From assembly GCF_003790525.1 (NCBI RefSeq), contig NZ_CP033635.1: a stretch of DNA of 64,000 nt; one strand, written 5' to 3'. The DNA comes from Escherichia coli. Lineage in GTDB: Bacteria; Pseudomonadota; Gammaproteobacteria; Enterobacterales; Enterobacteriaceae. The number at the start of each line of letters is the position of its first letter. Positions within the stretch are counted from its first letter, which is position 1. Positions 7,030 to 55,025 of this stretch are shown here, piece after piece. A program made the position numbers and the translations under genes. A model generated the notes under the pieces. That model worked only from the letters and a program-made list of their open reading frames with translations, had not been told where the DNA came from and ran no database searches.

Positions 7030-7230
7030 GCAAACGATAACGCGGGCTAAATTTGCATTACCTGCTAATGTCGGCTGGTGGTACTATCGTCGCCATTCGT
7101 ATAAGTAATTGTCTTAATTATGCTAACTCGCCTCCTTTTCAGAACTTAGCCCCTTCGGGGTACTGATATACTGGGATGCGATACAGAAATATGAACACGT
7201 TCAAAACACGAACAGTCCAGGAGAATTTAA

Positions 7231-8139
7231 ATGGCTGCCATTAATACGAAAGTCAAAAAAGCCGTTATCCCCGTTGCGGGATTAGGAACCAGGATGTTGC
7301 CGGCGACGAAAGCCATCCCGAAAGAGATGCTGCCACTTGTCGATAAGCCATTAATTCAATACGTCGTGAATGAATGTATTGCGGCTGGCATTACTGAAAT
7401 TGTGCTGGTTACTCACTCATCTAAAAACTCTATTGAAAACCACTTTGATACCAGTTTTGAACTGGAAGCAATGCTGGAAAAACGTGTAAAACGTCAACTG
7501 CTTGATGAAGTGCAGTCTATTTGTCCGCCGCACGTGACTATTATGCAAGTTCGTCAGGGGCTGGCGAAAGGCCTGGGACACGCGGTATTGTGTGCTCACC
7601 CGGTAGTGGGTGATGAACCTGTGGCTGTTATTTTGCCTGACGTTATTCTGGATGAATATGAATCCGATTTGTCACAGGATAACCTGGCAGAGATGATCCG
7701 CCGCTTTGATGAAACGGGTCATAGCCAGATCATGGTTGAACCGGTTGCTGATGTGACCGCATATGGCGTTGTGGATTGCAAAGGCGTTGAATTAGCGCCG
7801 GGTGAAAGCGTACCGATGGTTGGCGTGGTTGAAAAACCAAAAGCGGATGTTGCGCCGTCTAATCTCGCTATTGTGGGTCGTTACGTTCTTAGCGCGGATA
7901 TTTGGCCGTTGCTGGCAAAAACCCCTCCGGGTGCTGGTGATGAAATTCAGCTCACCGACGCAATTGATATGCTGATCGAAAAAGAAACGGTGGAAGCCTA
8001 TCATATGAAAGGGAAGAGCCATGACTGCGGTAATAAATTAGGTTACATGCAGGCCTTCGTTGAATACGGTATTCGTCATAACACCCTTGGCTCGGAATTT
8101 AAAGCCTGGCTTGAAGAAGAGATGGGCATTAAGAAGTAA
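7231..8139 (+). CDS. galU: UTP-glucose-1-phosphate uridylyltransferase
   Basis: 302 aa, nucleotidyltransferase motif [24 protein letters not shown]; RBS ggaga upstream. Confidence 0.92.
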
Positions 8140-8162
8140 CATCCGTATCGGTGTTATCCACG

Positions 8163-8195
8163 AAACGGCGTTGAGCAATCGACGCCGTTTTTTTA
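8163..8195 (+). terminator. rho-independent terminator after galU
   Basis: hairpin aaacggcgt / acgccgttt followed by T run. Confidence 0.65.
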
Positions 8196-8230
8196 TAGCT
8201 TATTCTTATTAAATTGTCTTAAACCGGACA

Positions 8231-8264
8231 ATAAAAAATCCCGCCGATGGCGGGATTTTTAAGC
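8231..8264 (-). terminator. bidirectional hairpin terminator downstream of hns
   Basis: palindrome aatcccgcc-gatg-gcgggatt flanked by A and T runs on both sides. Confidence 0.65.
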
Positions 8265-8283
8265 AAGTGCAATCTACAAAAGA

Positions 8284-8697
8284 TTATTGCTTGATCAGGA
8301 AATCGTCGAGGGATTTACCTTGCTCATCCATTGCTTTTTTGATTACAGCTGGAGTACGGCCCTGGCCAGTCCAGGTTTTAGTTTCGCCGTTTTCGTCAAC
8401 GTAGCTATATTTTGCCGGACGCTGAGCACGTTTAGCTTTGGTGCCAGATTTAACGGCAGCAAGGCTATTCAGCAGTTCGTTCGGGTCAATACCGTCAGCG
8501 ATCAGCATTTCGCGATATTGCTGCAGTTTACGAGTGCGCTCTTCAACTTCAGCAGCAGCCGCGCTTTCTTCTTCGCGACGTTCGTTAACAACAACTTCTA
8601 ATTTTTCCAGCATTTCTTCCAGCGTTTCAAGTGTACATTCTCTTGCCTGCGCACGAAGAGTACGGATGTTGTTCAGAATTTTAAGTGCTTCGCTCAT
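8284..8697 (-). CDS. hns: nucleoid-associated protein H-NS
   Basis: 137 aa, [20 protein letters not shown]... with C-terminal [12 protein letters not shown]-binding motif. Confidence 0.95.
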
Positions 8698-9300
8698 TGT
8701 AGTAATCTCAAACTTATATTGGGGTGGTTTGTTGAGGTAATAATAGAGCCTTAAATTCAGTTGTGCAATAGCCAGGAATGTAAGGAATTCAAAATTGTTC
8801 TTTATTTTGTGCCGCCAATAAATATCTTTTCATAAAATTAGCCAGAAAAGACGCGGCATATAGCCCTATTTGCACCGATGATTTCGCAGCACGTGAGGTT
8901 AAAACTTCCTGATTCATGTCACATTTTATGGGGAGATTATCGTAGGCTGACGACCTTTCAGTCTTCTGTATTAGTCGTGTTTACGAGAATTCCCTATTAA
9001 GCGAATGATGAAAAGTAGAACAGTCGCAATAAGAGCAGGGACTTAGTATTGCACTATCTCCAGGAGGTCAACAGAGGGCTATTACTTGCGCAACAGGTTA
9101 AAGATTGTGAATAGTTACCAGCAGTCATTTACCCGCTTATAACAAGCGAGGCAGTTGTAATGATAGCTCAGAAGGATTATGCAAGGCTTCGTAAGGGAGA
9201 ACGCATATACCACTTCTGTGCATACTGTTGAGCTGAAAAACTGACGAATTATGATAAACTCCAGCCAACTTTAATTCATATCATTGAGGGCCTGTGGCTG

Positions 9301-9918
9301 ATGGCACAGCTATATTTCTACTATTCCGCAATGAATGCGGGTAAGTCTACAGCATTGTTGCAATCTTCATACAATTACCAGGAGCGCGGCATGCGCACTG
9401 TCGTATATACGGCAGAAATTGATGATCGCTTTGGTGCCGGGAAAGTCAGCTCGCGTATAGGTTTGTCATCGCCTGCAAAATTATTTAACCAAAATTCATC
9501 ATTATTTGATGAGATTCGTGCGGAACATGAACAGCAGGCAATTCATTGCGTACTGGTTGATGAATGCCAGTTTTTAACCAGACAACAAGTATATGAATTA
9601 TCGGAGGTTGTCGATCAACTCGATATACCCGTACTTTGTTATGGTTTACGTACCGATTTTCGAGGTGAGTTATTTATTGGCAGCCAATACTTACTGGCAT
9701 GGTCCGACAAACTGGTTGAATTAAAAACCATCTGTTTTTGTGGCCGCAAAGCAAGCATGGTGCTGCGTCTTGATCAAGCAGGCAGACCTTATAACGAAGG
9801 TGAGCAGGTGGTTATTGGTGGTAATGAACGCTACGTTTCTGTATGCCGTAAACACTATAAAGAAGCGTTAGAAGTCGGCTCATTAACGGCTATTCAGGAA
9901 AGGCATCGCCACGATTAA
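9301..9918 (+). CDS. tdk: thymidine kinase
   Basis: 205 aa, P-loop MNAGKST and zinc-binding Cys pairs (CFCG, CRKHY). Confidence 0.92.
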
Positions 9919-10169
9919 TAAGAATTTCTTTACTGACAGGGTGAGCAGGGCGCTTTTATCCTGTCAGTTCATTTTACGCACTTCATCCGGTGTATATACC
10001 CTTCTCGACAGTTCTTTAACGCCACTATACCCCTCACAGATCGCTTTTACAGTGACGTTGACTTGTGACCTGTAAAGTACAATATCGCTGTGTGTAGGCG
10101 TTATACATCGCCGTAAATATGATGAAGGCAAATGCTGTCGGTTTATGGGAAAGTTGCTTTGGGTAAAAC

Positions 10170-10197
10170 AAAAAAACGGCCCCAGAAGGGACCGTTT
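10170..10197 (-). terminator. rho-independent terminator after adhE
   Basis: minus-strand hairpin aacggtccc / ggggccgtt followed by seven T. Confidence 0.65.
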
Positions 10198-10220
10198 ATG
10201 TTGCCAGACAGCGCTACTGA

Positions 10221-12896
10221 TTAAGCGGATTTCTTCGCTTTTTTCTCAGCTTTAGCCGGAGCGGCTTCTTTTTTCGCTGCAGTTTCACCTTCTACATAAT
10301 CACGACCGTAGTAGGTATCCAGCAGAATCTGTTTCAGCTCGGAGATCAGTGGGTAACGCGGGTTAGCGCCGGTGCACTGGTCATCGAATGCATCTTCAGA
10401 CAGTTTATCCACATTCGCCAGGAAGTCTGCTTCCTGAACGCCAGCTTCACGGATAGATTTCGGAATACCCAGTTCAGCTTTCAGCGTTTCCAGCCATGCC
10501 AGCAGTTTCTCGATCTTAGCAGCAGTACGGTCGCCCGGTGCGCTCAGACCCAGGTGGTCAGCAATTTCAGCATAACGACGGCGAGCCTGCGGACGGTCAT
10601 ACTGGCTGAATGCAGTCTGCTTGGTCGGGTTGTCGTTCGCGTTGTAGCGAATAACGTTACAAATCAGCAGGGCGTTTGCCAGACCGTGCGGAATATGGAA
10701 CTGGGAACCCAGTTTGTGCGCCATTGAGTGACATACACCCAGGAAGGCGTTCGCAAACGCGATACCCGCGATAGTTGCTGCACTGTGAACACGTTCACGC
10801 GCTACCGGATTTTTAGAACCTTCGTGGTAGGACGCTGGCAGATATTCTTTCAGCAGTTTCAGTGCCTGCAGTGCCTGACCATCAGAGAACTCAGATGCCA
10901 GTACAGAAACATAAGCTTCCATGGCGTGAGTTACTGCGTCCAGACCACCGAAAGCACACAGAGACTTCGGCATGTCCATAACCAGGTTGGCATCGACAAT
11001 CGCCATATCCGGGGTCAGCGCATAGTCTGCCAGCGGATATTTCTGACCAGTAGCGTCGTCAGTTACAACCGCAAACGGAGTGACTTCAGAACCTGTACCA
11101 GAAGTGGTGGTGACAGCGATCATTTTCGCTTTCACGCCCATTTTCGGGAACTTGTAGATACGTTTACGGATATCCATAAAGCGCAGCGCCAGCTCTTCGA
11201 AGTGAGTTTCCGGATGTTCGTACATAACCCACATGATCTTCGCGGCGTCCATCGGGGAACCACCACCTAGCGCGATAATCACGTCTGGTTTGAAGGAGTT
11301 TGCCAGTTCTGCACCTTTACGAACGATGCTCAGGGTCGGGTCAGCTTCTACTTCGAAGAAGACTTCAGTTTCAACGCCTGCTGCTTTCAGTACGGAAGTG
11401 ATCTGATCAGCATAACCATTGTTGAACAGGAAGCGGTCAGTCACGATGAGCGCACGTTTGTGGCCATCAGTAATCACTTCATCCAGCGCGATTGGCAGGG
11501 AGCCACGGCGGAAGTAGATAGATTTCGGAAGTTTGTGCCACAACATGTTTTCAGCTCGCTTAGCAACGGTTTTCTTGTTGATCAGGTGTTTCGGACCAAC
11601 GTTTTCAGAGATGGAGTTACCACCCCAGGAACCACAACCCAGAGTCAGGGAAGGTGCGAGTTTGAAGTTATACAGGTCACCGATACCACCCTGAGAAGCC
11701 GGGGTGTTAATCAGGATACGAGCCGTTTTCATTTTCTGACCGAAGTAAGAAACGCGAGCCGGTTGGTTATCCTGGTCAGTGTACAGGCAAGAGGTATGAC
11801 CGATACCGCCCATAGCAACCAGTTTCTCTGCTTTTTCTACCGCATCTTCGAAATCTTTAGCACGGTACATTGCCAGAGTCGGGGACAGTTTTTCATGTGC
11901 GAACGGTTCGCTTTCATCAACAACGGTCACTTCACCGATCAGAATCTTGGTGTTTTCTGGTACAGAGAAGCCTGCCAGTTCAGCAATTTTATAGGCTGGC
12001 TGACCAACGATAGCCGCGTTCAGCGCACCGTTTTTCAGGATAACATCCTGAACAGCTTTCAGCTCTTTACCCTGCAACAGATAGCCGCCGTGGGTTGCGA
12101 AACGTTCACGTACTGCGTCATAAACAGAGTCAACAACAACAACAGACTGTTCAGAAGCACAGATTACGCCGTTGTCGAAGGTTTTGGACATCAGCACAGA
12201 TGCAACTGCACGTTTGATATCAGCAGTTTCATCGATAACAACAGGCGTGTTACCCGCGCCTACACCGATAGCTGGTTTACCGGAGCTGTATGCGGCTTTA
12301 ACCATGCCCGGACCACCAGTCGCGAGGATCAGGTTGATGTCTGGGTGGTGCATCAGTGCGTTAGACAGTTCAACCGAAGGTTGATCGATCCAGCCGATCA
12401 GATCTTTCGGAGCACCGGCAGCGATAGCAGCCTGCAGAACGATATCAGCTGCTTTGTTGGTTGCATCTTTTGCACGCGGGTGCGGGGAGAAGATAATAGC
12501 GTTACGGGTCTTCAGGCTGATCAGCGATTTGAAGATAGCAGTTGAAGTCGGGTTAGTGGTCGGAACGATACCGCAAATAATACCGATTGGTTCAGCGATA
12601 GTGATGGTACCAAAAGTGTCGTCTTCAGACAGAACACCACAGGTTTTTTCATCTTTATAGGCGTTGTAGATATATTCAGAAGCAAAGTGGTTTTTGATCA
12701 CTTTATCTTCGACGATACCCATGCCGGATTCGGCAACGGCCATTTTCGCGAGTGGGATTCGAGCATCTGCAGCAGCCAGAGCGGCGGCGCGGAAGATTTT
12801 GTCTACTTGCTCTTGAGTGAAACTGGCATATTCACGCTGGGCTTTTTTTACACGCTCTACGAGTGCGTTAAGTTCAGCGACATTAGTAACAGCCAT
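10221..12896 (-). CDS. adhE: bifunctional aldehyde/alcohol dehydrogenase
   Basis: 891 aa, N-terminal aldehyde dehydrogenase and C-terminal iron-alcohol dehydrogenase domains. Confidence 0.95.
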
Positions 12897-20396: not shown

Positions 20397-22221
<1,825 letters not shown>

Positions 22222-22591
22222 AGATTAGAAATCCTTTTGAAAGCGCATTGTTATGAGTTTACGCATATGGATTCATCTGGCAAATAAAAACGCGGGAAAA
22301 GCACTGGTCAGCGTCGGGGGGGGGGGTATAATGACCATTCTGTTATTGCATAGAGTAGTTAACATGAAGCGGAGTAGAACGGAAGTGGGGCGCTGGCGCA
22401 TGCAGCGTCAGGCTAGCCGACGTAAATCGCGTTGGCTTGAGGGGCAGTCGCGCCGAAATATGCGTATCCACAGCATCAGGAAGTGCATTCTAAACAAACA
22501 GCGTAACTCGTTATTGTTTGCGATCTACAATATCTAAATGTACTGGGCACCATTGCGGTGCCCAATAAGTTTACTCTTCCGTCTTTAAAGT

Positions 22592-23845
22592 CTATTTTTG
22601 CGCTGATTCTTTATTGTCAGCTTTCGTTTCTTGTTCATCGTTATCGCTGAAAATACCATGACCGGAGTTCAACAACATTGAAACGAGCATATCATTATTA
22701 ATCTCTTCACCATTTAAAACTCGTGCCAGAATTTCGCTGCCAAACAGTTGCGGCGAGAGAATGATATCCGGATGTACCATCTTAATCTTATTCAGGTTTT
22801 TGCTATCACTGACGGCGAGAACTGTTTTGACATCACTGCTCATATCTTTTGCCGAGAGTACAACAAACGCGTTATCTGCATCGTTATCACTCAGCGCCAG
22901 AATGGCCCGGCATCGATCGATTCCTGCTTTCTTTAATACTGAACTGTCATTACTGTCACCGGGGATAACATCAGCGTTATCACCTAAGCGTTGCTCAAGT
23001 TGCTTGATATCATCTTCAGGCAAGTTGCTGATAACCGTTACATTTTGTCCGCGTTGATTCAGTTGCAGAATCGTATTGATGGCGAGAATCGAATGTCCGC
23101 AAACAATAAAATGATCTTTACGATGCATTGTATGATTGTTTCCTTTTACAAGTTTGTTGAATCCCCCGCGGATAAGCGGGCCAAAAATTGAAGTCATGGA
23201 GGTGGCAAAAACGGTAATGCCGGAAATAATGACCGAAATAGTGAACAATCGTGCTGATTCAGAAACAGGGACAATATCGCCGTAGCCGACGGTTGACATG
23301 GTTTCTATCGAAAAATAGAACGCGGTCATCAAACTTTCTATTCGCGGATTAAAACCTTCGCTTAAATAAAGCGCACCGTAGGTGGAGTAAAACAGTAACG
23401 TCGTGAAACTAATAAATGCGAAAATTGTCCCGGCTGCGGCGCTACTGTGGGAGAAGTCTTTGCGCAGTATCAGCAAAAACACCAGCGTAAAAATGCAAAA
23501 TCCAATACTAAATTTCAGCCAGGGATAAAAATGCAGGGTGTAAATTAGCGCTATCAACAACAAAATGATACTGATTGCCCATGCGAGCTTTGCCCGGAAC
23601 AGTAAGCCAATGGAGTTCAGGACAAGAAAGACGCCGAGCATAAATAGAGGGGCGTTTGCCAGCAAGGAGAGATCCAACTCTGAAAATGCTTTGATATGGA
23701 AAATATCTAGCAAATTGACCGACATACCATAGATTGTTTTAAAAATAAGCAATCCATTTAAAAAGACGGCCAGCGCGAGAATGTCGTGCCGTAGGGTCAC
23801 CCATAAATTAGTTGCTGTTTGTTTGAATGTAGCCCAGTGACTCAC
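22592..23845 (-). CDS. kch: voltage-gated potassium channel Kch
   Basis: TM helices, selectivity filter TVGYGD, C-terminal RCK/TrkA-like domain; start placed at GTG giving MSHWATF (417 aa). Confidence 0.88.
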   Translation of the reverse strand: MSHWATFKQTATNLWVTLRHDILALAVFLNGLLIFKTIYGMSVNLLDIFHIKAFSELDLSLLANAPLFMLGVFLVLNSIGLLFRAKLAWAISIILLLIALIYTLHFYPWLKFSIGFCIFTLVFLLILRKDFSHSSAAAGTIFAFISFTTLLFYSTYGALYLSEGFNPRIESLMTAFYFSIETMSTVGYGDIVPVSESARLFTISVIISGITVFATSMTSIFGPLIRGGFNKLVKGNNHTMHRKDHFIVCGHSILAINTILQLNQRGQNVTVISNLPEDDIKQLEQRLGDNADVIPGDSNDSSVLKKAGIDRCRAILALSDNDADNAFVVLSAKDMSSDVKTVLAVSDSKNLNKIKMVHPDIILSPQLFGSEILARVLNGEEINNDMLVSMLLNSGHGIFSDNDEQETKADNKESAQK

Positions 23846-24348
23846 TGATACCTCTGTAACCACAATTTTGTTTAATTATCTCAACGTGCACATTTTCTGA
23901 ACATACATGCAGCGCGTGAATGTGTTAAACAATAGTAGATGACTTTATCCGCAGTAATCAAAGGTTTTGAGTGAGCAACTCTGCGTCAGGAAAGGGCATT
24001 TTCCTGAATATGTTCACATCATATAAAGAAATACAGATAAAGTTATTATCTGCTTGTGGTGGTGAATGCACTGACCGACCTATAAGGAAAGGCCAAACAA
24101 GAACACGGTTGCAAAAACCGTGCCCTTAAATATTGAATTTCTATTCAGAACACTTTCTTAAAATGTCATTCAGACCATTTCGAAGAATTTCGCATAAAAA
24201 CGTTCTGTTACGTTGAACCCTTACGCCATCTGCCTTTCAGCCCCTAAGCCATCACACTTCGAGTACAAGTGTTACATTGCGGGTATCTTTGAGCAACGAG
24301 TTTTGTGTACACTTTTGCGTACTCGCAAGCCAGATGTGTACACATTCA

Positions 24349-25407
<1,059 letters not shown>

Positions 25408-25408
25408 A

Positions 25409-25828
25409 TCAGGGAATATTCAGGTAGCAAACGCAAGCTCAGGAACCACATGGAGCTTTATGAAATCAACTGGTAACGCTGTAGCGCCTGGAGCATGGGT
25501 TCCGAATTCAGATGGCCGCCTGAAAGATGGAGTGTCCAGAATTGGAGACCCGCTCAGTAAGATGGAAATGCTAAAAGGTTGTTCCTGGACGCGAAAAGAT
25601 ACCGGACAATGGGGGATTGGGTTTATCGCGCAGGATGTTAAGAAAATCTTCCCCCAGGCAGTAACTGAGGGAGGTGATCGTCAACTTCCTGATGGAACTA
25701 TGGTGGAAGGAGTACTCTCTCCAGATACTTACGGCGTTGCGGCAGCGTTGCATCATGAAGCGATTCTGGCACTAATGAACGAACTCAGTGAATTACGAGA
25801 AGAAGTGAATGCGCTGAAAAGTGAGTAA
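25409..25828 (+). pseudogene. phage tail fibre/tailspike C-terminal fragment (intramolecular chaperone-like domain)
   Basis: translation ...NSDGRLKDGVSRIGDPLSKMEMLKGCSWTRKD...ELSELREEVNALKSE resembles the self-cleaving chaperone C-terminus of tail fibres; no N-terminal part, starts at the IS boundary. Confidence 0.45.
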
Positions 25829-29178: not shown

Positions 29179-29401
29179 AGGCACAACTCCTTGTTCGGGA
29201 AAGTTGTAAAGTACGTTATTTGAAAGGGCGAAGATCTGCAACGGAAAGATGATGTCTTTGTTAAGACCATGCATAAAGTAAGGTCAATTACGCCAAAAAT
29301 GACATTTTCACTGATCCTGATCGTCTTGCCTTATTGAATATGATTGCTATTTGCATTTAAAATCGGGGCCTGGTTTTTCTACTGAAATGATTATGACTTC
29401 A

Positions 29402-30118
29402 ATGACCCTTGATTTACCTCGCCGCTTCCCCTGGCCGACGTTACTTTCGGTCTGCATTCATGGTGCTGTTGTGGCGGGTTTGATCTATACCTCGGTACAT
29501 CAGGTTATTGAACTACCTGCGCCCGCGCAGCCGATTTCTGTCACGATGGTTGCGCCAGCGGATCTCGAACCGCCACAAGCCGTTCAACCACCACCGGAGC
29601 CGGTGGTAGAGCCAGAACCGGAACCTGAGCCGATCCCTGAACCGCCAAAAGAAGCTCCGGTGGTCATTGAAAAGCCGAAGCCGAAACCTAAGCCAAAACC
29701 GAAGCCGGTGAAAAAGGTGGAGCAGCCAAAACGCGATGTCAAACCCGTAGAGTCGCGTCCGGCATCACCGTTTGAAAATACGGCACCCGCGCGCCCGACA
29801 TCAAGTACGGCAACGGCTGCAACCAGCAAGCCGGTTACCAGTGTGGCTTCAGGACCACGCGCATTAAGCCGTAATCAGCCGCAGTATCCGGCACGAGCAC
29901 AGGCATTGCGCATTGAAGGGCAGGTTAAAGTTAAATTTGATGTCACGCCAGATGGTCGCGTGGATAACGTACAAATCCTCTCAGCCAAGCCTGCGAACAT
30001 GTTTGAGCGTGAAGTGAAAAATGCGATGCGCAGATGGCGTTATGAGCCGGGTAAGCCAGGCAGTGGGATTGTGGTGAATATCCTGTTTAAAATTAACGGC
30101 ACTACCGAAATTCAGTAA
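29402..30118 (+). CDS. tonB: energy transducer TonB
   Basis: start at [17 protein letters not shown]; Pro-rich EP/KP repeats; C-terminal domain ...[19 protein letters not shown]... Confidence 0.92.
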
Positions 30119-31973: not shown

Positions 31974-32327
31974 GCACTCTCCTTGAGTTTTATGCAGGTG
32001 TTAATTAGCGGGCAATTGTACCCTGGTTAAGCCTCGGGTGGCAGCATCAGGTCTTGTATGGAAAAGCATATCTTTGTAAAGCGGAGGTAATTGCGGGTCT
32101 AAGCTATGGGCAAACCGCAGCAAGTGGCGAGCGAGTTAATGTTTGCGTAGTGAAATATATAGGAATTGATTTAAATCACATTAACCAGGATTCACAGTGC
32201 AACTTCTAAATTAATCCAGATCAATAAAGGGTGAATTATCATATATAATGTGATCTGTGTAGGATCATTTGTTACTCCAATGTGGGTATATTCGTCACGT
32301 TTTTATAACCATAACGACGGAGCGGAT

Positions 32328-32966
32328 ATGAAAAAGTTAACAGTGGCGGCTTTGGCAGTAACAACTCTTCTCTCTGGCAGTGCCTATGCGCATGAAGCAG
32401 GCGAATTTTTTATGCGTGCAGGGTCTGCAACCGTACGTCCAACAGAAGGTGCTGGTGGTACGTTAGGAAGTCTGGGTGGATTCAGCGTGACCAATAACAC
32501 GCAACTGGGCCTGACGTTTACTTATATGGCGACCGACAACATTGGTGTGGAATTACTGGCTGCGACGCCGTTCCGCCATAAAATCGGCACCCGGGCGACC
32601 GGCGATATTGCAACCGTTCATCATCTGCCGCCAACACTGATGGCGCAGTGGTATTTTGGTGATGCCAGCAGCAAATTCCGTCCTTACGTTGGGGCAGGTA
32701 TTAACTACACCACCTTCTTTGATAATGGATTTAACGATCATGGCAAAGAGGCGGGGCTTTCCGATCTCAGTCTGAAAGATTCCTGGGGAGCTGCCGGGCA
32801 GGTGGGGGTTGATTATCTGATTAACCGTGACTGGTTGGTTAACATGTCAGTGTGGTACATGGATATCGACACCACCGCCAGCTATAAATTTAATGGAACC
32901 CCCGTGAAAGACGCGGTACGACTGGATCCGTGGGTGTTTATGTTCTCTGCCGGATACCGCTTCTAA
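32328..32966 (+). CDS. ompW: outer membrane protein W
   Basis: start at MKKLTVAALAVTTLLSGSAYA signal peptide; beta-barrel ending ...SAGYRF (212 aa). Confidence 0.92.
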   Translation: MKKLTVAALAVTTLLSGSAYAHEAGEFFMRAGSATVRPTEGAGGTLGSLGGFSVTNNTQLGLTFTYMATDNIGVELLAATPFRHKIGTRATGDIATVHHLPPTLMAQWYFGDASSKFRPYVGAGINYTTFFDNGFNDHGKEAGLSDLSLKDSWGAAGQVGVDYLINRDWLVNMSVWYMDIDTTASYKFNGTPVKDAVRLDPWVFMFSAGYRF

Positions 32967-33002: not shown

Positions 33003-33029
33003 AACTGGTTATCAAATAACCAGTTTTTT
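33003..33029 (+). terminator. ompW terminator hairpin overlapping the prophage integrase stop codon (probable attL core region)
   Basis: perfect palindrome aactggttat-caa-ataaccagtt followed by TTTTTT; int stop codon lies at 33012-33014 inside the hairpin. Confidence 0.55.
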
Positions 33030-34142
33030 CCACTCTTTACCGCGTGCGTCGTTGTAAATATCGGTCATTTTTTGATTCGAATGGCCCAGCAAAATTTTGG
33101 TATCAATTCCCTGTTCTCTGAACAATCGTTCTGATAAAGATCTTTGCTCATGGAAAGAGGGTGGCGTGCCATTAGCACGCCAGTTGTAATCCACAGAATC
33201 CCGGGCTTTTTTAAATGCGACTGTTAATGTTGCTGGTTTAACCATCCCGCCGCGCTTACCCATCCCCTTAGCGTGATGATGGTGCAATAACCACGGACTA
33301 AGGATGTAATCACGACAGGATGACACCACGTCACCCAGGGTAAGATTTAATTTGTCGCAACGCAGAGCCAGAGGAATGGCTATCCGGGCTCCTGTTTTTT
33401 GCTGTTCGACATGAAGGTAACCATCCCGGATATCCGAAAACTGCATTTTGCAAATATCCGAAAGACGCTGGCCCGTCATCAGTGCCAGCAGCATGCCGCG
33501 CTGTAAAAAGTAACCATCCTTTTCCGCTGCGTTATAAATCATCATCCACTCATCAAAAGTCAGTCGCTGTCTTGATATCCGCACTTGCGGTTTTTTTGCC
33601 GATTCAGCCGGGTTAAAGCCTGGCGGAACATCACCAGTTTGTTGAGCCTCCCGGAAAACATCGATCAATACCTTCCTGAAAATTTGTCCCATTCTGTTAT
33701 GTCCCTTTGCCTTGTATTCTTCCAGCACCGATACCACATCTTTTACGGTTATGGCATCTAGCGGCCTGGCTCCAAAACGTTCATCAAACACCCTGAGAGG
33801 AGCCGCTTTTTGCTTCAGCGTGCTGAGTTTGATCTCTCCGTTCTCATATCTTTCCTGTTGAATTTTTCTGTAATTATTCAGAAAAATGGAAACGGTTGAT
33901 GCGCCGCCGGTATCACTAATAATTTTCTCCTGCAGACTGAGCATTTGCTCCATTTGTTGTCTGGCAAGACGGCTGTTCGCTTCTGCTGAAATGGTTTCCG
34001 CCAGTTTCTGGTCAATACTGCCGAGTCCATGATTTTTACCTGTGATGGGATTCCTGTAACGCCAGTAAACTTTGTTATTTCTTTTGTCAAAATACGGAGA
34101 TAAACCCGGAACATCGGTTTTATATTTTCTCGGGCGCGCCAT
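33012..34142 (-). CDS. int: prophage tyrosine integrase
   Basis: 376 aa, lambda-Int-like catalytic C-terminus (...HEQRSLSERLFREQGIDTKILLGHSNQKMTDIYNDARG) with catalytic Tyr in DIYND. Confidence 0.9.
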   Translation of the reverse strand: MARPRKYKTDVPGLSPYFDKRNNKVYWRYRNPITGKNHGLGSIDQKLAETISAEANSRLARQQMEQMLSLQEKIISDTGGASTVSIFLNNYRKIQQERYENGEIKLSTLKQKAAPLRVFDERFGARPLDAITVKDVVSVLEEYKAKGHNRMGQIFRKVLIDVFREAQQTGDVPPGFNPAESAKKPQVRISRQRLTFDEWMMIYNAAEKDGYFLQRGMLLALMTGQRLSDICKMQFSDIRDGYLHVEQQKTGARIAIPLALRCDKLNLTLGDVVSSCRDYILSPWLLHHHHAKGMGKRGGMVKPATLTVAFKKARDSVDYNWRANGTPPSFHEQRSLSERLFREQGIDTKILLGHSNQKMTDIYNDARGKEWKKLVI

Positions 34143-49181: not shown

Positions 49182-49257
49182 GTCCCTTTAGCTCAGTGGT
49201 GAGAGCGAGCGACTCATAATCGCCAGGTCGCTGGTTCAAATCCAGCAAGGGCCACCA
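49182..49257 (+). tRNA. tRNA with CAU anticodon (Ile2/Met-type, ileZ-like)
   Basis: cloverleaf folds by eye: D stem GCTC/GAGC, anticodon loop CTCATAA, T loop TTCAAAT, CCA encoded; one mismatch at pair 2-71. Confidence 0.8.
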
Positions 49258-49258
49258 A

Positions 49259-49335
49259 CCGCCACTAGCTCATCAGGAGAGAGCATCAGCCTTCTAAGCT
49301 GACTGTGCGGGGTTCGAGTCCCCGGTGGCGGTCCA
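49259..49335 (+). tRNA. tRNA-Arg (UCU)
   Basis: cloverleaf folds by eye: D stem GCTC/GAGC, anticodon stem TCAGC/GCTGA, loop CTTCTAA, T stem CGGGG/CCCCG, CCA encoded. Confidence 0.85.
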
Positions 49336-50680: not shown

Positions 50681-51214
50681 ATGAACGCAAAAATCAGATA
50701 CGGCCTGTCGGCTGCCGTTCTGGCGCTGATTGGTGCTGGCGCATCTGCTCCTCAGATACTTGATCAGTTTCTGGACGAAAAAGAGGGTAACCACACAACG
50801 GCATACCGCGATGGTTCTGGCATATGGACCATCTGCCGCGGTGCCACGGTGGTGGATGGAAAACACGTTTTTCCCGGAATGAAGCTGTCGAAGGAAAAAT
50901 GCGCTCAGGTTAATGCCATTGAGCGTGATAAGGCGCTGGCATGGGTGGAGCGCAATATTAAAGTTCCACTGACCGAAGCACAGAAAGCGGGTATTGCGTC
51001 ATTCTGTCCCTATAACATTGGCCCCGGTAAGTGTTTCCCGTCGACGTTTTATAAGCGGCTTAATGCCGGTGATCGAAAAGGCGCCTGCGAGGCGATTCGC
51101 TGGTGGATAAAGGATGGTGGGCGCGATTGCCGCATACGTTCAAATAACTGCTATGGACAGGTTATTCGTCGTGACCAGGAAAGCGCATTAGCCTGTTGGG
51201 GGATAGATCAGTGA
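50681..51214 (+). CDS. SAR-type endolysin (phage lysozyme)
   Basis: 177 aa; N-terminal signal-anchor-release-like segment [15 protein letters not shown] followed by lysozyme-like catalytic region; precedes Rz/Rz1. Confidence 0.8.
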
Positions 51215-51678
51215 GCAGAGTCGCCGCGATTATTTATGCTCTGGTTATCTGCATCATCGTCTGCCTGTCGTTGGCGGTCAATCATTACCGTGATAACGCC
51301 ATAGCCTACAAAGAACAGCGTGATAAAAAAGTCAGTGAACTGAAGCAGGCGACCGCCACCATTACTGACATGCAGCAGCGTCAGCGTGATGTTGCTGCGC
51401 TCGATGCAAAGTACTCGAGAGAATTAGCCAATGCGAAAGCTGAAAATGAAACTCTGCGCGCTGATGTTGCCGCTGGCCGTAAGCGCCTGCGGGTCAATGC
51501 CAGTTGCTCCGAAGCCGTGCGTGAAGCCACCGGACCCACCAGCGTGGATAATGCAACCAGCCCCCGACTGGCAGACACCGCTGAACGGGATTATTTCACC
51601 CTCAGAGAACGGTTGATGACGATGCAGAAGCAACTGGAAGGGGCACAGGAGTATATCCGCACTCAGTGCATTAAGTAG
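51211..51678 (+). CDS. i-spanin Rz
   Basis: GTGA overlap with endolysin stop; N-terminal TM helix, coiled-coil periplasmic domain. Confidence 0.8.
51431..51616 (+). CDS. o-spanin Rz1 (lipoprotein embedded in Rz, +1 frame)
   Basis: [22 protein letters not shown] lipobox and Pro-rich [28 protein letters not shown], very similar to lambda Rz1. Confidence 0.8.
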
Positions 51679-51971: not shown

Positions 51972-52137
51972 ACATTTCGCAGGGTATGGGATTGCAGTTA
52001 ATGGTGAGTTACTGGAGGGGCAGCTTTCCGCCAGGACAGAGTCACGCGGAGGCGAGCCACCAACAGTCACTGTGACTTTCAGACTGACAGCAGAACATAT
52101 CGAGAATCAGCCCGTCATTCAACTGAACAGGGTGTGA
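51937..52137 (+). CDS. hypothetical phage protein
   Basis: start MNYQLAKLY with RBS ggagga; reading frame is open upstream to 51862. Confidence 0.4.
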   Translation: MNYQLAKLYRGKHFAGYGIAVNGELLEGQLSARTESRGGEPPTVTVTFRLTAEHIENQPVIQLNRV

Positions 52138-52144
52138 GGTATTT

Positions 52145-52231
52145 ATGCCATCACGAATCCCACGTGCCTGCCGTAAGCGTGGATGCGCAGGTACAATCAC
52201 AGACAGTTCTGGTTACTGCGATAAACATCGT
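52145..52231 (+). pseudogene. HNH endonuclease, N-terminal remnant
   Basis: MPSRIPRACRKRGCAGTITDSSGYCDKHR matches the characteristic start of phage HNH endonucleases; downstream sequence is unrelated AT-rich DNA. Confidence 0.45.
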
Positions 52232-52313
52232 GTGCGACCGTGGTTGCTCGGTATCTTTGTCTCTCTTGGTAACTTATTTGTTCGAACCGGTTTACAACTT
52301 ACAGGATATAAAC

Positions 52314-52763
52314 ATGCAAGAAGAAGCAAATAAAATTCTTGTTGATTTATTGACGAAGGCCAGCGATGGAATTGATTCCGCCATTGCATTCAGTCAGGCT
52401 CAGATTCCGGATGTTGTTCATCAGTTGCTGGTATGGAATATGGTTGATAGCCTGATTAAAACATTAATAGCCATTTCAACAATCCCTCTGGTTTTCTGGT
52501 TTATGAAGAAGCAGTGCCAAAGAGTTGAGACAGGTAAAATCGGTGATGAAGGATATTCATGGGAGAAGGGAAATCCCAAATACAGGCCGACAATGGTTTG
52601 GGATAGCAAAGGTGATATTAATCTTCTTATCGTGCCATTGGTTGGAGTTTTGACTATGTGGGGGATTTTTATTATTTGTGCAGTAACCAATATGACATGG
52701 TTAAAAATCTGGCTGGCACCTAAGTTATATCTAATCGAATACGCAGCATCACTAATTAAATAG
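52314..52763 (+). CDS. membrane protein of unknown function (AT-rich moron)
   Basis: start MQEEANKIL with agga RBS; two predicted TM helices; hairpin terminator just downstream. Confidence 0.55.
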   Translation: MQEEANKILVDLLTKASDGIDSAIAFSQAQIPDVVHQLLVWNMVDSLIKTLIAISTIPLVFWFMKKQCQRVETGKIGDEGYSWEKGNPKYRPTMVWDSKGDINLLIVPLVGVLTMWGIFIICAVTNMTWLKIWLAPKLYLIEYAASLIK

Positions 52764-53194
52764 TCCATTACAAAAGCCATTCGCTACAGAGTGGCTTTGA
52801 TAATGGCTTATACCCTGTACGGGATAACTTAATTGATATCCCTTTTAACGGATAAAGGTATTCAAGCCTGACACATCATTCGCTATATAGTCGCCGTATT
52901 CCCGTATGAACAGAAACCGTAGCCCGACGGGGAACTCCTTCTGCGCGAGTGTGCGGGAATAATCAAAAACGATGTACACCGGGTTTTTACCGCGTTAATG
53001 ATTCGCGGGTTTATCCCTCATAGTCGCCTGTCCGGTGCGATGGTGGAAGAAACCGGAAGCTGTATTACAGAAAGTGCTACTACTGTATCCTGATGCGATG
53101 TATGTAATGTGAGTCAGATAATGGCACAGGATGTGGTGATGTGGCAGTCTGGAACACAGGATATATTGTCAGAATAAGACCCGTAGGAATAAAA

Positions 53195-53521
53195 ATGAAA
53201 AGACGCCTTTCACTACTTTTTCTGTTATCTGCCCTGGCAGTGGGATGCTCGCAGCAAAAAGCTGATGAGCCCCGGCAATTAGTGACGGTGTATCCACGAT
53301 ATCCGGAATATGCTGCAGCAAATTATATCAAGGGGCTGGTTGAGGTTAAGTTCGATATTGGTGCTGACGGGACTGTGACACGGATCGTTTTTCTCCGCTC
53401 AGAGCCTCATAATTTGTTTCGTGATGAAGTGGTGAAGGCCATGGCGAAATGGAGATTTGAAAAGAATAGTCCCCGTCAGGGAGTGAAGAGACAATTTATC
53501 TTTACGCCATCACGTCCCTGA
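53195..53521 (+). CDS. lipoprotein consisting of a TonB C-terminal-like domain
   Basis: start MKRRLSLLFLLSALAVGCSQQ (lipobox LAVGC); region YPRYPEYAAANYIKGLVEVKFDIGADGTVTRIVFL...FRDEVVKAMAKWRFE aligns with host TonB C-terminus [32 protein letters not shown]...[15 protein letters not shown] in this window. Confidence 0.7.
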   Translation: MKRRLSLLFLLSALAVGCSQQKADEPRQLVTVYPRYPEYAAANYIKGLVEVKFDIGADGTVTRIVFLRSEPHNLFRDEVVKAMAKWRFEKNSPRQGVKRQFIFTPSRP

Positions 53522-53885
53522 TGCTTCCAGGTAGAGAGGGGCTGGAAGCAGGAGAAAAATGAAAGAGCCAGCGGTTATATTTTTGTCATGGCTGACGAGA
53601 AATGATGGAAGAAGGCGTTGTATGCCACACAACGCCTCACTGTTCATTTCTTCTTTTTCTCTGGTGTAACCCGATGAATAAGAGTTGCACTGGTTTCCGG
53701 TGAGATGGCGATATGCTCGGGCAAAGTATGCTGGCAGTTTTCCAACTGGTCAAAAATATCTGCTCTCGTCTGTTGCAATGCCTGCAGCATGCGGCGGCAA
53801 TGCGCCTTTGCTTTTGCTAACCATCTTTCCTTCCTCTATCAGTCGCTGCGTGAACTCATCATGGAATACCAGGTAAATGCGGATG

Positions 53886-54137
53886 TTATCGGTTTTGGCT
53901 ACGCAGCATAGTACAAAACGGACAGGTGCATCCCGGAATGGGGGAGGCGTCACATGTCCCTGTGATGGTTGTTCCGGGTAATGCACTGTGTGGGGCATAA
54001 AAATGTCCGATAATTTTACTTTCTACCGCAGTTAGTTGATTCGTTGGTCCTGGTAGCACATTGGGCGAGGGTTTAAATGCCAGGCAACTGAAGGATGATG
54101 TTGCAAGGGAGATAGCGAGAATATTTCTGATTTTCAT
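53886..54137 (-). CDS. small secreted Cys-rich protein
   Basis: start MKIRNILAISLATSSFSCLA signal peptide; C-terminal Cys cluster TGTCDASPIPGCTCPFC. Confidence 0.45.
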   Translation of the reverse strand: MKIRNILAISLATSSFSCLAFKPSPNVLPGPTNQLTAVESKIIGHFYAPHSALPGTTITGTCDASPIPGCTCPFCTMLRSQNR

Positions 54138-54287
54138 TTGATGATGCCTCTGTGTGAAATGACGGTAAACGACGCACTTGTGCCGGCACATAATAGCAAG
54201 CATCAGAATAGATCAGATTCGATTCTTGCTGTAAGTGATAATTATTCTCGTTTTTTCGGGTCCTTTCCGGCGATCCAACAGGTTACG

Positions 54288-54299
54288 GGGCGTCGACCT
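54288..54299 (+). other. cos site cohesive-end sequence (cosN), lambda-like
   Basis: ...ccggcgatccaacaggttacg GGGCGTCGACCT cgcgggttttcgctatttatg closely matches the remembered lambda cos junction; about 180 bp upstream of Nu1. Confidence 0.7.
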
Positions 54300-54476
54300 C
54301 GCGGGTTTTCGCTATTTATGAAAATTTTCCGGTTTAAGGCATTTCCGTTCTTCTTCGTCGTAACTTAATGTTTTTATTTAAAATACCCCCTGAAAAGAAA
54401 GGAAACGACAGGTGCTGAAAACGAGCTTTTGGGCCTCTGTCGTTTCCTTTCTCTGTTTTTGGCCGTGGAATGAACA

Positions 54477-55025
54477 ATGGAAGTCAACAAAAAGCAGCTG
54501 GCTGACATTTTCGGTGCGAGTATCCGTACCATTCAGAACTGGCAGGAGCAGGGAATGCCCGTTCTGCGAGGCGGTGGGAAGGGTAATGAGGTGCTTTATG
54601 ACTCTGCCGCCGTCATAAAATGGTATGCCGAAAGGGATGCTGAAATTGAGAACGAAAAGCTGCGCCGGGAGGTTGAAGAACTGCGGCAGGCCAGCGAGAC
54701 AGATCTGCAGCCCGGTACGATTGATTACGAACGCTACCGTCTCACAAAAGCACAGGCAGATGCGCAGGAACTGAAAAATGCTCGTGAAGAAGGGCTGGTT
54801 CTTGAAACGGAATTATTTACCTACATTTTTCAGCGAGTTGCGCAGAATATATCCGGGATCCTTGTTCGTGTTCCGCAGACACTGCAGCGTAAATACCCTG
54901 ATATATCACCAGCACATCTTGATGCTGTGAAAACTGAAATCGCGAAAGCATCCGATGTGGCTTCTGAATCAGGTGAGAATGTGTGGAGGTGGATTGATGA
55001 TTTCAGACGAGCTGAGGGCGGCTAA
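54477..55025 (+). CDS. nu1: terminase small subunit
   Basis: [42 protein letters not shown] matches lambda Nu1 N-terminus. Confidence 0.92.

What the first reader, a model, noticed from the sequence alone, without database searches (positions are those of the whole stretch)
53195..53521. Prophage lipoprotein made of a TonB C-terminal domain
A small lipoprotein (lipobox LAVGC after the signal peptide) in the accessory region between the lysis cassette and cos consists essentially of a domain that aligns with the C-terminal domain of the host's own TonB in this window (shared V.VKFD...DG.V....L......FE.EV..AM..WR.E pattern). A periplasmic, membrane-tethered copy of the TonB domain that contacts TonB boxes could titrate or block TonB-dependent outer-membrane receptors, giving superinfection exclusion or colicin resistance, functionally analogous to known phage lipoproteins that inactivate FhuA (Cor, Llp). 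I do not recall this described as a mechanism.
Basis: partly seen in the sequence, partly recalled or inferred. Interest (0 to 1): 0.7.

Follow-up and report, generated by a model that had tools for sequence, protein, structure and literature searches.

The report
Prophage lipoprotein copying TonB's receptor-binding domain
A small gene carried by lambda-like prophages in about a quarter of E. coli genomes encodes an outer-membrane-tethered copy of the part of TonB that grips nutrient receptors; it probably acts as a decoy that blocks TonB-dependent toxins and phages, but nobody has tested this.

Summary
Window 53195..53521 (+) encodes a 108-aa lipoprotein precursor (lipobox LAVGC, Ser at +2). 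Its mature part is a TonB C-terminal domain: Pfam TonB_C E=3e-13, 41% identical to the host TonB in the same window, and the model lies 0.7 A rmsd from solved TonB.

It is not a TonB, because it lacks the membrane anchor and the proline-rich spacer. It is not a decaying fragment either: dN/dS is 0.12 between its two E. coli subtypes.

The gene is a moron that always sits between the lysis genes and the terminase. It occurs in phage 21, in Stx phages and in 1224 + 417 of 5426 complete E. coli genomes. A 96%-identical copy is transcribed in an LF82 lysogen.

The decoy idea is plausible but unproven. Engineered periplasmic TonB fragments are known to shut down TonB-dependent transport. AlphaFold pairs the FhuA TonB box with the phage domain much as it does with real TonB. 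A plasmid homologue lies in a bacteriocin island.

Databases already call it "TonB family protein". I found no paper on its function. It is best seen as a new variant of phage exclusion lipoproteins, with moderate to high interest.

The parts
53195..53521 (+). Gene for the 108-aa TonB_C lipoprotein precursor (stop codon included)
   Evidence: ORF list; Pfam, NCBIfam and PDB matches; annotated 'TonB family protein' in identical E. coli DNA
53185..53188 (+). AGGA ribosome-binding site, 6 nt before the ATG
   Evidence: Read from the sequence; GGAAT-AAAATG is conserved in type A and type B upstream regions
53195..53248 (+). Signal peptide, residues 1-18, ending in lipobox L14-A15-V16-G17-C18 (nt 53234..53248)
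   Evidence: Read from the translation. Cys18 is invariant in nine family members and in all 80 viral-contig copies. No family member has Asp at +2
53249..53281 (+). Short tether, residues 19-29, between the lipidated Cys and the folded domain
   Evidence: Low to moderate pLDDT at the start of the model. There are 7-8 residues between Cys and the conserved Pro in the phage-borne members
53282..53506 (+). TonB C-terminal-domain fold, residues 30-104 (Pfam match 33-102)
   Evidence: AF2 domain pLDDT is above 90. Foldseek: 1u07 rmsd 0.7 A over 77 residues; also 2gsk_B and 2grx_C
53474..53506 (+). Last beta strand (residues 94-104, equivalent to TonB beta3), the edge that pairs with TonB boxes in TonB. 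The protein stops 4 residues later, at the equivalent of TonB T235, so the last four TonB residues are missing
   Evidence: Strand E76-86 of the mature numbering in the model; alignment to TonB; beta augmentation of TonB beta3 by the FhuA TonB box is described in PMC11658791
52789..54332 (+). Mosaic block of about 1.5 kb that carries the gene; shared at 96-98% with phage 21 and with strain LH50-c, while the DNA to its left differs
   Evidence: blastn of the window against L001, L002 and L017; upstream alignment
53117..53122 (+). GATAAT, a candidate -10 element conserved between type A and type B in an otherwise diverged stretch (inference only)
   Evidence: Alignment. The consensus scan found no good sigma-70 promoter on the + strand, and there is no Fur box
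50681..51678 (+). Lysis genes upstream: endolysin 50681..51214, Rz 51196..51678, with Rz1 embedded at 51431..51616
   Evidence: PHROG matches
54477..55025 (+). Small terminase subunit (Nu1 type) downstream; cos lies at about 54287
   Evidence: PHROG 57; the end of the phage 21 linear genome aligns to window 54287
29402..30118 (+). Host tonB: the protein that the phage domain resembles and would compete with
   Evidence: Translation; BLASTP 41% identity, E=3e-19

Best explanation
[quoted passage not shown] A tether of about 10 residues holds a TonB C-terminal domain just under the outer-membrane receptors. Because it has no inner-membrane anchor and no link to ExbB/ExbD, it cannot deliver energy. 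I propose that it occupies TonB boxes: those of ligand-loaded TonB-dependent transporters, and those of incoming group B colicins, which carry their own TonB box. A variant of the same idea is that it pairs with the TonB domain itself. Either way it competes with real TonB. The lysogen would become less sensitive to TonB-dependent bacteriocins and microcins, and to phages that need TonB such as T1 and phi80, at some cost in siderophore and B12 uptake. Shown here: the domain, the lipoprotein signals, the moron position, purifying selection, and lysogen transcription of a 96%-identical copy. Inferred: outer-membrane location, TonB-box binding, and the protective phenotype.
For: Domain and fold. 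Lipobox with a non-Asp +2 residue throughout the family. Selection: dN/dS 0.12 between type A and type B, with dS 1.47; all 80 best viral-contig copies are intact, with only 6 protein alleles. Accessory gene: it always lies between Rz and a small terminase, across Nu1-type, HNH/TerS-type and Terminase_2/6-type phages, inside a 1.5-kb mosaic block. Expression: the 'TonB fragment' LF82_160 of prophage Perceval is transcribed 8-fold above the prophage median in the lysogen, against 11-fold for CI. Precedent: periplasmic TonB fragments 33-239, 103-239 and 122-239 abolish TonB-dependent activity and ferrichrome transport. Binding test in silico: with the FhuA N-terminus fused by a linker, AF2 turns FhuA residues 8-12 (the TonB box) into a strand, pLDDT about 70, on the phage domain. 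The same construct with host TonB 150-239 gives residues 7-13, pLDDT about 75-78, as in the crystal complex. The seven residues found functionally important in the TonB C-terminus (Y163, F180, G186, F202, W213, Y215, F230; PMC3005593) are kept, with Y215 as Phe. Context: on Klebsiella and Enterobacter IncF plasmids a homologue sits beside an Exc2 lipoprotein, a cloacin-type immunity gene, a colicin-E3-type RNase remnant and a bacteriocin exporter. Another plasmid homologue adjoins QatABCD.
Against: There is no experimental phenotype or binding data for any family member. Residues at the TonB positions R158, N159, Q160 and R166 differ (T, V, Y, Y). The seven 'important' residues are also conserved in most TonB_C domains I collected, so keeping them says little. 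Transporters can greatly outnumber a moderately expressed moron product, whereas the laboratory fragments were overexpressed. A tether of about 10 residues from the N-terminus may constrain docking under a barrel. Some relatives are chromosomal, next to housekeeping genes, so the family may have a non-defensive role. The gene is absent from PADLOC. The bacteriocin-island association is one module copied among plasmids, so it counts as a single instance.
Confidence: 0.45

Rival explanations
1. The binding is the same but the benefit is different. The lipoprotein dampens or retunes TonB-dependent uptake or signalling, for example to limit iron, sideromycin or haem influx or FecA-type signalling. 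It would be a physiological modulator for the lysogen, not a defence against phages or bacteriocins.
For: Phage 21 and Perceval also carry sitABCD, a TonB-independent Mn/Fe importer expressed in the lysogen. That fits a prophage that reshapes metal uptake. Chromosomal relatives lie next to ahpCF and stress genes.
Against: There is no Fur box and no iron-related regulatory signal upstream. The LH50-c prophage with the identical gene has no sit operon. The plasmid contexts are bacteriocin and defence islands.
Confidence: 0.14
2. It is an envelope lipoprotein with a structural or virulence role, like its neighbour Bor/Iss in phage 21. It would bind peptidoglycan or another periplasmic partner and improve serum resistance or envelope stability, without touching TonB boxes.
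For: It lies next to bor in phage 21 and in 14 of the 36 type A viral contigs. It is a small, basic outer-membrane lipoprotein, pI 9.9. TonB_C domains also occur in many secreted and multi-repeat proteins that are not energy transducers.
Against: The domain stays close to enterobacterial TonB (0.7 A rmsd, 40% identity), and AF2 docks a TonB box on it. Nothing here supports peptidoglycan binding.
Confidence: 0.12
3. It acts in the lytic cycle. It would be transcribed with the late operon and help lysis, or protect progeny virions from being wasted on receptors in cell debris, as Llp is thought to do for T5.
For: The gene lies in the late transcription unit, right after the lysis cassette. PHROG 1267 is labelled 'Rz-like spanin'.
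Against: A complete Rz/Rz1 pair already exists. The protein is not embedded in Rz, is not proline-rich and has a globular TonB fold. It is transcribed in the uninduced lysogen at about the level of CI. The J tail-tip C-termini of two carrier prophages (phage 21 and LH50-c) resemble lambda, 434 and Stx-phage types, not the FhuA-using HK022 or mEp types. So there is no sign that the carrier's own receptor depends on TonB.
Confidence: 0.08
4. It is a functionless remnant of a tonB gene picked up by a phage, the 'TonB fragment' or 'partial tonB-like' of older annotations.
For: Several records annotate it as partial or truncated. Frameshifted and truncated copies exist in some genomes. The prophage here sits 2 kb from tonB.
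Against: dN/dS is 0.12 with saturated synonymous sites. The length of 108 aa and the lipobox are conserved in both subtypes. A lipoprotein signal peptide has been gained. It is only 41% identical to the host tonB and groups, though weakly, with other short lipoproteins. It is expressed in a lysogen.
Confidence: 0.03

Closest known systems
Engineered periplasmic TonB fragments (TonB 33-239, 103-239, 122-239 exported with a signal peptide)
   Same: A TonB C-terminal domain in the periplasm, uncoupled from ExbB/ExbD. These constructs block ferrichrome transport and other TonB-dependent activities, which the authors attributed to competition at the transporters. The original report is, from my memory, Howard et al. 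2001, J Bacteriol.
   Different: They are laboratory constructs, soluble, overexpressed, identical in sequence to TonB and include the spacer. The phage protein is natural, lipid-anchored, has only the globular domain minus the last four residues, and is 41% identical to TonB.
Llp of phage T5 and Cor of phi80, N15 and HK022 (superinfection-exclusion lipoproteins that inactivate FhuA)
   Same: Small phage-encoded lipoproteins of the inner leaflet of the outer membrane. They act from the periplasmic side on a TonB-dependent receptor and block phage entry.
   Different: No sequence or fold relationship: Pfam finds only TonB_C, and the listed structure matches (the 50 best of 94) with any real similarity are TonB and TolA domains. 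Llp binds inside the FhuA barrel and closes the extracellular loops allosterically, and it is specific for FhuA. A TonB mimic would be generic for all TonB boxes and would affect only TonB-dependent steps.
TonB (E. coli P02929), the host energy transducer
   Same: The C-terminal domain fold, the YP motif, the conserved Gly residues and the aromatic residues.
   Different: No N-terminal transmembrane anchor and no proline-rich spacer; it scores far below the equivalog cut-offs (66.8 against 265 bits). It is anchored to the opposite membrane. Q160 and R166 are replaced, and the C-terminal four residues are absent.
Bor/Iss lipoprotein moron of lambda and phage 21
   Same: A small outer-membrane lipoprotein moron in the same genome segment between Rz and cos, expressed from the prophage.
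   Different: An unrelated sequence on the opposite strand; known for serum resistance, not for any link with TonB.
Short TonB_C lipoproteins of other phages, plasmids and chromosomes (P0038-P0042, P0049, P0063, WP_170933330)
   Same: About 110-130 aa, a lipobox, the same YP-x-Y-A-x-A-N and SEP-x-HLFD motifs, 40-47% identity. The phage copies occupy the same post-lysis position.
   Different: They are themselves uncharacterised, and some are chromosomal with no mobile-element context.

Membership tests
TonB_C domain (Pfam PF03544 / TIGR01352) | Profile match above the family threshold | tested here: met
   PF03544 E=3.2e-13; TIGR01352 48.6 bits against a cut-off of 27.1
TonB_C domain (Pfam PF03544 / TIGR01352) | Fold superimposable on solved TonB C-terminal domains | tested here: met
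   AF2 domain pLDDT above 90; Foldseek 1u07 rmsd 0.7 A over 77 residues, TM (target) 0.84-0.90 for 1u07, 2gsk_B and 2grx_C
TonB_C domain (Pfam PF03544 / TIGR01352) | Conserved YP motif and the two invariant Gly residues | tested here: met
   Y36-P37, G47 and G59 align with Y163-P164, G174 and G186
TonB energy transducer (NCBIfam NF008080-NF008084 equivalogs) | Whole-protein score above the curated equivalog cut-off | tested here: not met
   Best score 66.8 bits against a cut-off of 265; only the last ~75-85 profile positions match
TonB energy transducer (NCBIfam NF008080-NF008084 equivalogs) | N-terminal transmembrane anchor that couples to ExbB/ExbD, and a proline-rich periplasmic spacer | tested here: not met
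   The protein has 108 aa. Its N-terminus is a cleavable lipoprotein signal peptide, followed after about 10 residues by the globular domain
Bacterial lipoprotein (signal peptidase II substrate) | Basic n-region, hydrophobic h-region and a lipobox [LVI][ASTVI][GAS]C within the first ~35 residues | tested here: met
   K2-R3-R4, LSLLFLLSA, L-A-V-G-C18, read directly; conserved across the family
Bacterial lipoprotein (signal peptidase II substrate) | Outer-membrane sorting (no Asp at +2) and actual lipidation and localisation | not testable with these tools
   The +2 residue is Ser, and S, T or A in relatives, which predicts Lol-dependent outer-membrane sorting. Localisation needs fractionation or palmitate labelling
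Cor/Llp superinfection-exclusion lipoproteins | Sequence or fold homology to Cor or Llp | tested here: not met
   Pfam gives only TonB_C. The PHROG hits are 1267 and 34172, not Cor or Llp families. No Llp structure appears among the listed Foldseek matches, the 50 best of 94
Cor/Llp superinfection-exclusion lipoproteins | Blocks infection by phages that use the targeted receptor | not testable with these tools
   Needs plating assays
Rz1-type o-spanin (the label of PHROG 1267) | A short proline-rich lipoprotein gene embedded in or overlapping the i-spanin gene | tested here: not met
   The real Rz1 is at 51431..51616 inside Rz (PHROG 3198). This gene is 1.5 kb downstream and encodes a globular TonB fold
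Moron (independently expressed accessory gene of a prophage) | Present or absent among otherwise related phages, and bounded by mosaic junctions | tested here: met
   A 1.5-kb block is shared with phage 21 and LH50-c while the left flanks differ. It is found with several packaging-module types
Moron (independently expressed accessory gene of a prophage) | Transcribed in the lysogen, above the silent prophage background | tested here: inconclusive
   Shown for the 96%-identical Perceval gene LF82_160, 8-fold above the prophage median, but not for this strain. No convincing promoter or terminator was found by scanning; only a conserved GATAAT

The most novel reading that the evidence does not exclude
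A widespread family of 'anti-TonB' decoy lipoproteins is carried by phages and plasmids, present in roughly 23-30% of complete E. coli genomes. It would give lysogens generic, receptor-independent protection against all TonB-dependent bacteriocins, microcins and phages, by mimicking the host's own energy-transducer domain at the outer membrane. The iron-uptake cost would be offset in some phages by co-carried sitABCD.
Probability: 0.35. Interest if true: 0.78.

Novelty: new variant of a known kind. Interest (0 to 1): 0.6.

Why it matters
If the decoy model is right, a very common prophage gene changes how E. coli responds to three things. The first is group B colicins and catecholate-receptor microcins, which shape competition in the gut. 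The second is TonB-dependent phages. The third may be siderophore-drug conjugates that enter through TonB-dependent transporters.

It would also be a natural example of a virus copying one domain of a host machine to jam it. Unlike Cor and Llp, which each block one receptor, it would work on every TonB box. The gene is small, present in classical phage 21 and easy to test with standard colicin, phage and 55Fe-uptake assays. It would also correct a misleading database label (PHROG 1267, 'Rz-like spanin').

Tried and rejected
- **Fur regulation:** no Fur-box-like site (12 or more of 19 matches) lies between 52500 and 53600.
- **Own promoter and terminator:** the consensus scan found no good sigma-70 promoter on the + strand upstream and no terminator downstream. 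Only a GATAAT conserved between subtypes was seen.
- **Recent capture from the neighbouring host tonB:** rejected. Identity is only 41%, and in an NJ tree the gene groups with other short lipoproteins and not with gamma-proteobacterial TonB domains, although bootstrap support is weak at 26%.
- **Spanin function (PHROG label):** rejected, because Rz and Rz1 are present separately.
- **Known defence-system protein:** no PADLOC hit.
- **Self-exclusion like Cor:** the J tail-tip C-termini of two carrier prophages (phage 21 and LH50-c) resemble lambda, 434 and Stx-phage types and not the FhuA-type HK022 or mEp tips. There is therefore no sign that the carriers use a TonB-dependent receptor. This is weak evidence, since receptors were not assigned.
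- **General link with sitABCD:** present in phage 21 and Perceval, absent from the LH50-c prophage. I could not measure the association genome-wide.
- **Conservation of the seven 'functionally important' TonB residues as a specific sign of TonB-box recognition:** they are conserved in most TonB_C domains I collected, so this is not discriminating.
- **Literature:** ten searches found no functional study.

Full report
**1. What is at the coordinates**

Window 53195..53521 (+) is an ORF of 108 codons with an ATG start and a TGA stop. AGGA lies six bases upstream. The N-terminus MKRRLSLLFLLSALAVGC|SQQ has the three parts of a lipoprotein signal peptide: basic residues, a hydrophobic core, and the lipobox L-A-V-G-C with Cys18. 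The +2 residue is Ser. [quoted passage not shown]

An in-frame GTG at 53141 would add 18 residues that do not look like a signal sequence. It is not supported by the type B relatives, whose upstream DNA differs but keeps GGAAT-AAAATG.

**2. The domain**

- Pfam gives a single hit, TonB_C PF03544, E=3.2e-13, residues 33-102.
- NCBIfam TIGR01352 (tonB_Cterm) scores 48.6 bits against a cut-off of 27.1. The full-length TonB equivalogs match only through their last ~75-85 positions and fall far below their cut-offs, 66.8 against 265 bits.
- Against solved structures the best hits are the E. coli TonB C-terminal domains 1u07, 1xx3, 2gsk_B and 2grx_C, E about 1e-14, residues 24-103.
- The host tonB is in the same window, inside ORF 29351..30118, with the true start at about 29402. 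The two proteins share 41% identity over 81 residues, E=3e-19. Phage residue n corresponds to TonB residue n+127.
- An AlphaFold2 model has pLDDT above 90 across the domain. It superimposes on 1u07 at 0.7 A over 77 residues, and on the TonB chains of the BtuB and FhuA complexes at 0.8-1.0 A.

**3. What it is not**

- **Not a TonB.** It has no transmembrane anchor and no proline-rich spacer, and it would be tethered to the opposite membrane.
- **Not a spanin,** although PHROG 1267, which it matches end to end at E=2e-40, carries that label. The window already has Rz (51196..51678, PHROG 13) with Rz1 embedded at 51431..51616 (PHROG 3198).
- **Not a decaying fragment.** Two subtypes circulate in E. 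coli. Type A is the one here and in phage 21, ev017 and Perceval. Type B is about 70% identical and occurs in Stx1a phages and JLK-2012. Both are exactly 108 aa with a lipobox. Between them dN/dS is 0.12, with dS 1.47.
- **Intact in viral contigs.** In IMG/VR, 177 viral contigs encode a relative. The 80 best all carry an intact ORF with Cys18, and they comprise only six protein alleles.

**4. Where it lives**

- Megablast finds type A in 1224, and type B in 417, of 5426 complete E. coli genomes. Nearly all copies are chromosomal and annotated 'TonB family protein'.
- In the window the gene lies 1.5 kb after Rz and about 770 bp before cos. The right end of the phage 21 genome aligns to window 54287.
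- It sits in a 1.5-kb block (about 52789..54332) that is 96-98% identical in phage 21 and in strain LH50-c. The DNA to the left differs: bor in phage 21, a PHROG 3054 gene here.
- In nearly all of the 80 viral contigs with enough flanking DNA, the gene lies downstream of Rz or the endolysin and upstream of a small terminase. That terminase can be Nu1-type or HNH/TerS-type.
- More distant short lipoprotein relatives (40-47% identity) occupy the same slot in other phages: an HK97-like phage after a DUF2514 spanin, a Klebsiella phage, a phage with Terminase_2/6 and a prophage on a Salmonella plasmid.

This is the behaviour of a moron. Transcriptome data exist for the 96%-identical Perceval gene. 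In E. coli LF82 grown in LB, 'TonB fragment' LF82_160 is expressed 8-fold above the prophage median, against 11-fold for the CI repressor, and the authors list it among the morons (PMC9928086). I could not find a convincing promoter. The consensus scan is negative, there is no Fur box, and only a GATAAT at 53117..53122 is conserved between the subtypes.

**5. How it most likely works**

[quoted passage not shown] The TonB box adds a strand to the edge of the TonB sheet at strand beta3 (PMC11658791). Periplasmic TonB fragments that are not coupled to ExbB/ExbD act as dominant negatives: fragments 33-239, 103-239 and 122-239 stop TonB-dependent activity and ferrichrome transport (bioRxiv 10.1101/2020.01.05.895219, citing earlier work).

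*The phage protein.* It is a natural version of such a fragment, reduced to the globular domain and tethered to the outer membrane by about 10 residues. It ends at the equivalent of TonB T235, just after the beta3-like strand (residues 94-104), so TonB's last four residues are missing.

*In-silico binding test.* I fused the first 30 residues of mature FhuA to the domain through a 20-residue Gly/Ser linker and supplied a family alignment.
- With the phage domain, AlphaFold2 makes FhuA residues 8-12 (TITVT, the TonB box) a beta strand at pLDDT about 70. The linker and the rest of the peptide stay coil.
- With host TonB 150-239 as a positive control, residues 7-13 become a strand at pLDDT 75-78, which matches the crystal complex as I recall it.
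- The test has limits. No negative control could be run, and the tool does not report which strand the peptide pairs with.

*Conserved residues.* The seven residues found functionally important in the TonB C-terminus (Y163, F180, G186, F202, W213, Y215, F230; PMC3005593) are all kept, with Y215 as Phe. They are also conserved in most TonB_C domains I collected, so this is weak evidence.

*Differences from TonB.* R158, N159, Q160 and R166 become T, V, Y and Y. Type B has Leu at the Q160 position, the same residue as the classical Q160L suppressor, which restores function with mutant TonB boxes. This is only suggestive.

**6. Context that bears on the benefit**

- On IncF plasmids of Klebsiella and Enterobacter, a 42%-identical short TonB_C lipoprotein is followed 48 bp later by an Exc2-family lipoprotein (NF033828, E=1.5e-34). 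It faces a cloacin-type immunity gene and a remnant of a colicin-E3-type ribonuclease (PF09000, E=5e-25).
- Next in that locus come a 191-aa protein with a double-glycine-type leader and a HlyD/peptidase-ABC exporter. This is a bacteriocin island. It is one module copied among plasmids, so it counts as a single association.
- Another plasmid homologue lies beside a QatABCD defence system.
- Two relatives are chromosomal, next to ahpCF/GST and Usp/acetyltransferase genes. The family is therefore not exclusively mobile.
- The J tail-tip C-termini of two carrier prophages (phage 21 and LH50-c) resemble lambda, 434 and Stx-phage types. They match the FhuA-using HK022 and mEp phages only in the N-terminal part of the query. 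If the protein excludes anything, it is more likely foreign phages and bacteriocins than the carrier's own kind.
- Phage 21 and Perceval also carry sitABCD, a TonB-independent Mn/Fe importer. That could offset an iron-uptake cost. The LH50-c prophage with the identical gene lacks it.

**7. Weighing the explanations**

| Explanation | Confidence |
|---|---|
| Outer-membrane-tethered, non-energised TonB mimic that competes with TonB at TonB boxes (or pairs with TonB itself) and lowers sensitivity to TonB-dependent bacteriocins and phages | 0.45 |
| Same binding, but the benefit is physiological modulation of uptake | 0.14 |
| Bor-like envelope or virulence lipoprotein | 0.12 |
| Lytic-cycle role | 0.08 |
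| Functionless remnant (contradicted by the selection data) | 0.03 |

The main weaknesses of the leading model:
- There is no experiment on any family member.
- Stoichiometry may be unfavourable, with abundant transporters against a moderately expressed moron product.
- The short N-terminal tether may constrain docking.
- The Q160-region residues differ from TonB.

**8. Comparison with what is known, and novelty**

The gene is already in the databases: 'TonB family protein' in RefSeq, 'TonB C-terminal domain protein' in the phage 21 record, 'partial tonB-like membrane protein' in CP-933N-derived annotation, and PHROG 1267. It has been listed as an expressed moron. So noticing it is not new.

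What I could not find in ten full-text searches, including a 2024 review of superinfection exclusion, is any statement or test of its function.

Functionally the nearest things are the engineered dominant-negative TonB fragments and the Cor and Llp lipoproteins, which inactivate FhuA from the periplasmic side. It shares location and logic with Cor and Llp but not their fold, and it would be generic for all TonB boxes. I rate it a new variant of a known kind: a phage exclusion or lysogenic-conversion lipoprotein built by domain mimicry of a host machine. Interest is 0.6. It is common, is present in a classical phage, is cheap to test, and is relevant to colicin and microcin ecology and perhaps to siderophore-drug conjugates. 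The mechanism, however, is still inference.

Noticed in passing
window 32250..32966 (ompW), 33012..34142 (- strand, integrase), 29402..30118 (tonB): The prophage is integrated at the 3' end of ompW, only about 2 kb from the host tonB whose domain it mimics. In strain LH50-c a partial ompW copy marks the other end. This looks like coincidence: the phage gene is only 41% identical to tonB and lies in the middle of the prophage map.
   Followed up: partly
L003 8968..12001 (phage 21 record positions 21967-25416); Perceval prophage of LF82: Phage 21 and Perceval carry sitABCD, a TonB-independent Mn/Fe ABC importer, together with the TonB_C lipoprotein. Both are expressed in the LF82 lysogen. This could compensate for reduced TonB-dependent iron uptake. 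The LH50-c prophage lacks it.
   Followed up: partly
L019 6956..14249 (Klebsiella pneumoniae plasmid NZ_CP073792.1); the first three genes also in L022 5956..7486: Gene order: short TonB_C lipoprotein, Exc2-family lipoprotein, cloacin-type immunity gene, a 73-aa remnant of a colicin-E3-type RNase interrupted by an IS, a 191-aa protein with a GG-type leader, and a HlyD/peptidase-ABC exporter. This is a bacteriocin island on IncF plasmids.
   Followed up: partly
L015 5348..5737 and 7213..11737: A 129-aa TonB_C lipoprotein (P0063) lies on a ParM/StbB plasmid about 1.5 kb upstream of a QatABCD-like defence system: KAP NTPase, QatB and a TatD DNase.
   Followed up: no
PHROG 1267 (matched by window 53195..53518): The PHROG family that this protein matches end to end (E=2e-40) is labelled 'Rz-like spanin'. 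The protein has a TonB_C fold and the real Rz/Rz1 pair lies elsewhere in the window, so the label is probably an annotation carry-over.
   Followed up: yes
window 49182..49335: Two adjacent tRNA genes (anticodons CAT and TCT) lie in the late region, after the Q antiterminator gene and before the lysis genes. They are annotated tRNA-Ile and tRNA-Lys in strain LH50-c and called tRNA-Met and tRNA-Arg by ARAGORN.
   Followed up: no
type B alleles (P0010, P0011; L017 3501..3827): Type B proteins have Leu at the position of TonB Q160, the residue of the classical Q160L suppressor that restores function with mutant TonB boxes. Type A has Tyr there.
   Followed up: no
L008 6001..6402; L013 2329..2670: Short TonB_C lipoproteins (P0041, P0049) also occur in plain chromosomal contexts, next to ahpC/ahpF and a GST gene, or next to Usp and an acetyltransferase, with no mobile-element genes in view.
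   Followed up: no
window 53468..53476 (codons 92-94): The window's allele reads N-S-P-R-Q at residues 91-95. The commonest type A allele (35 of 80 viral contigs, and phage 21) reads N-R-P-C-Q, which puts a second Cys in the loop before the last strand.
   Followed up: no
proteins P0036, P0043, P0048, P0056 and others: Many of the best database hits are long proteins with 3-5 tandem TonB_C domains. They show that this domain is widely reused outside energy transduction.
   Followed up: no
window 52134..52763 (+), 53644..53790 (-), 53705..53911 (+): The neighbouring small ORFs match PHROGs of unknown function: 3054/10207, 4843 and 3744. The last two lie inside the same conserved 1.5-kb block as the TonB_C gene and might be co-inherited partners.
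   Followed up: no
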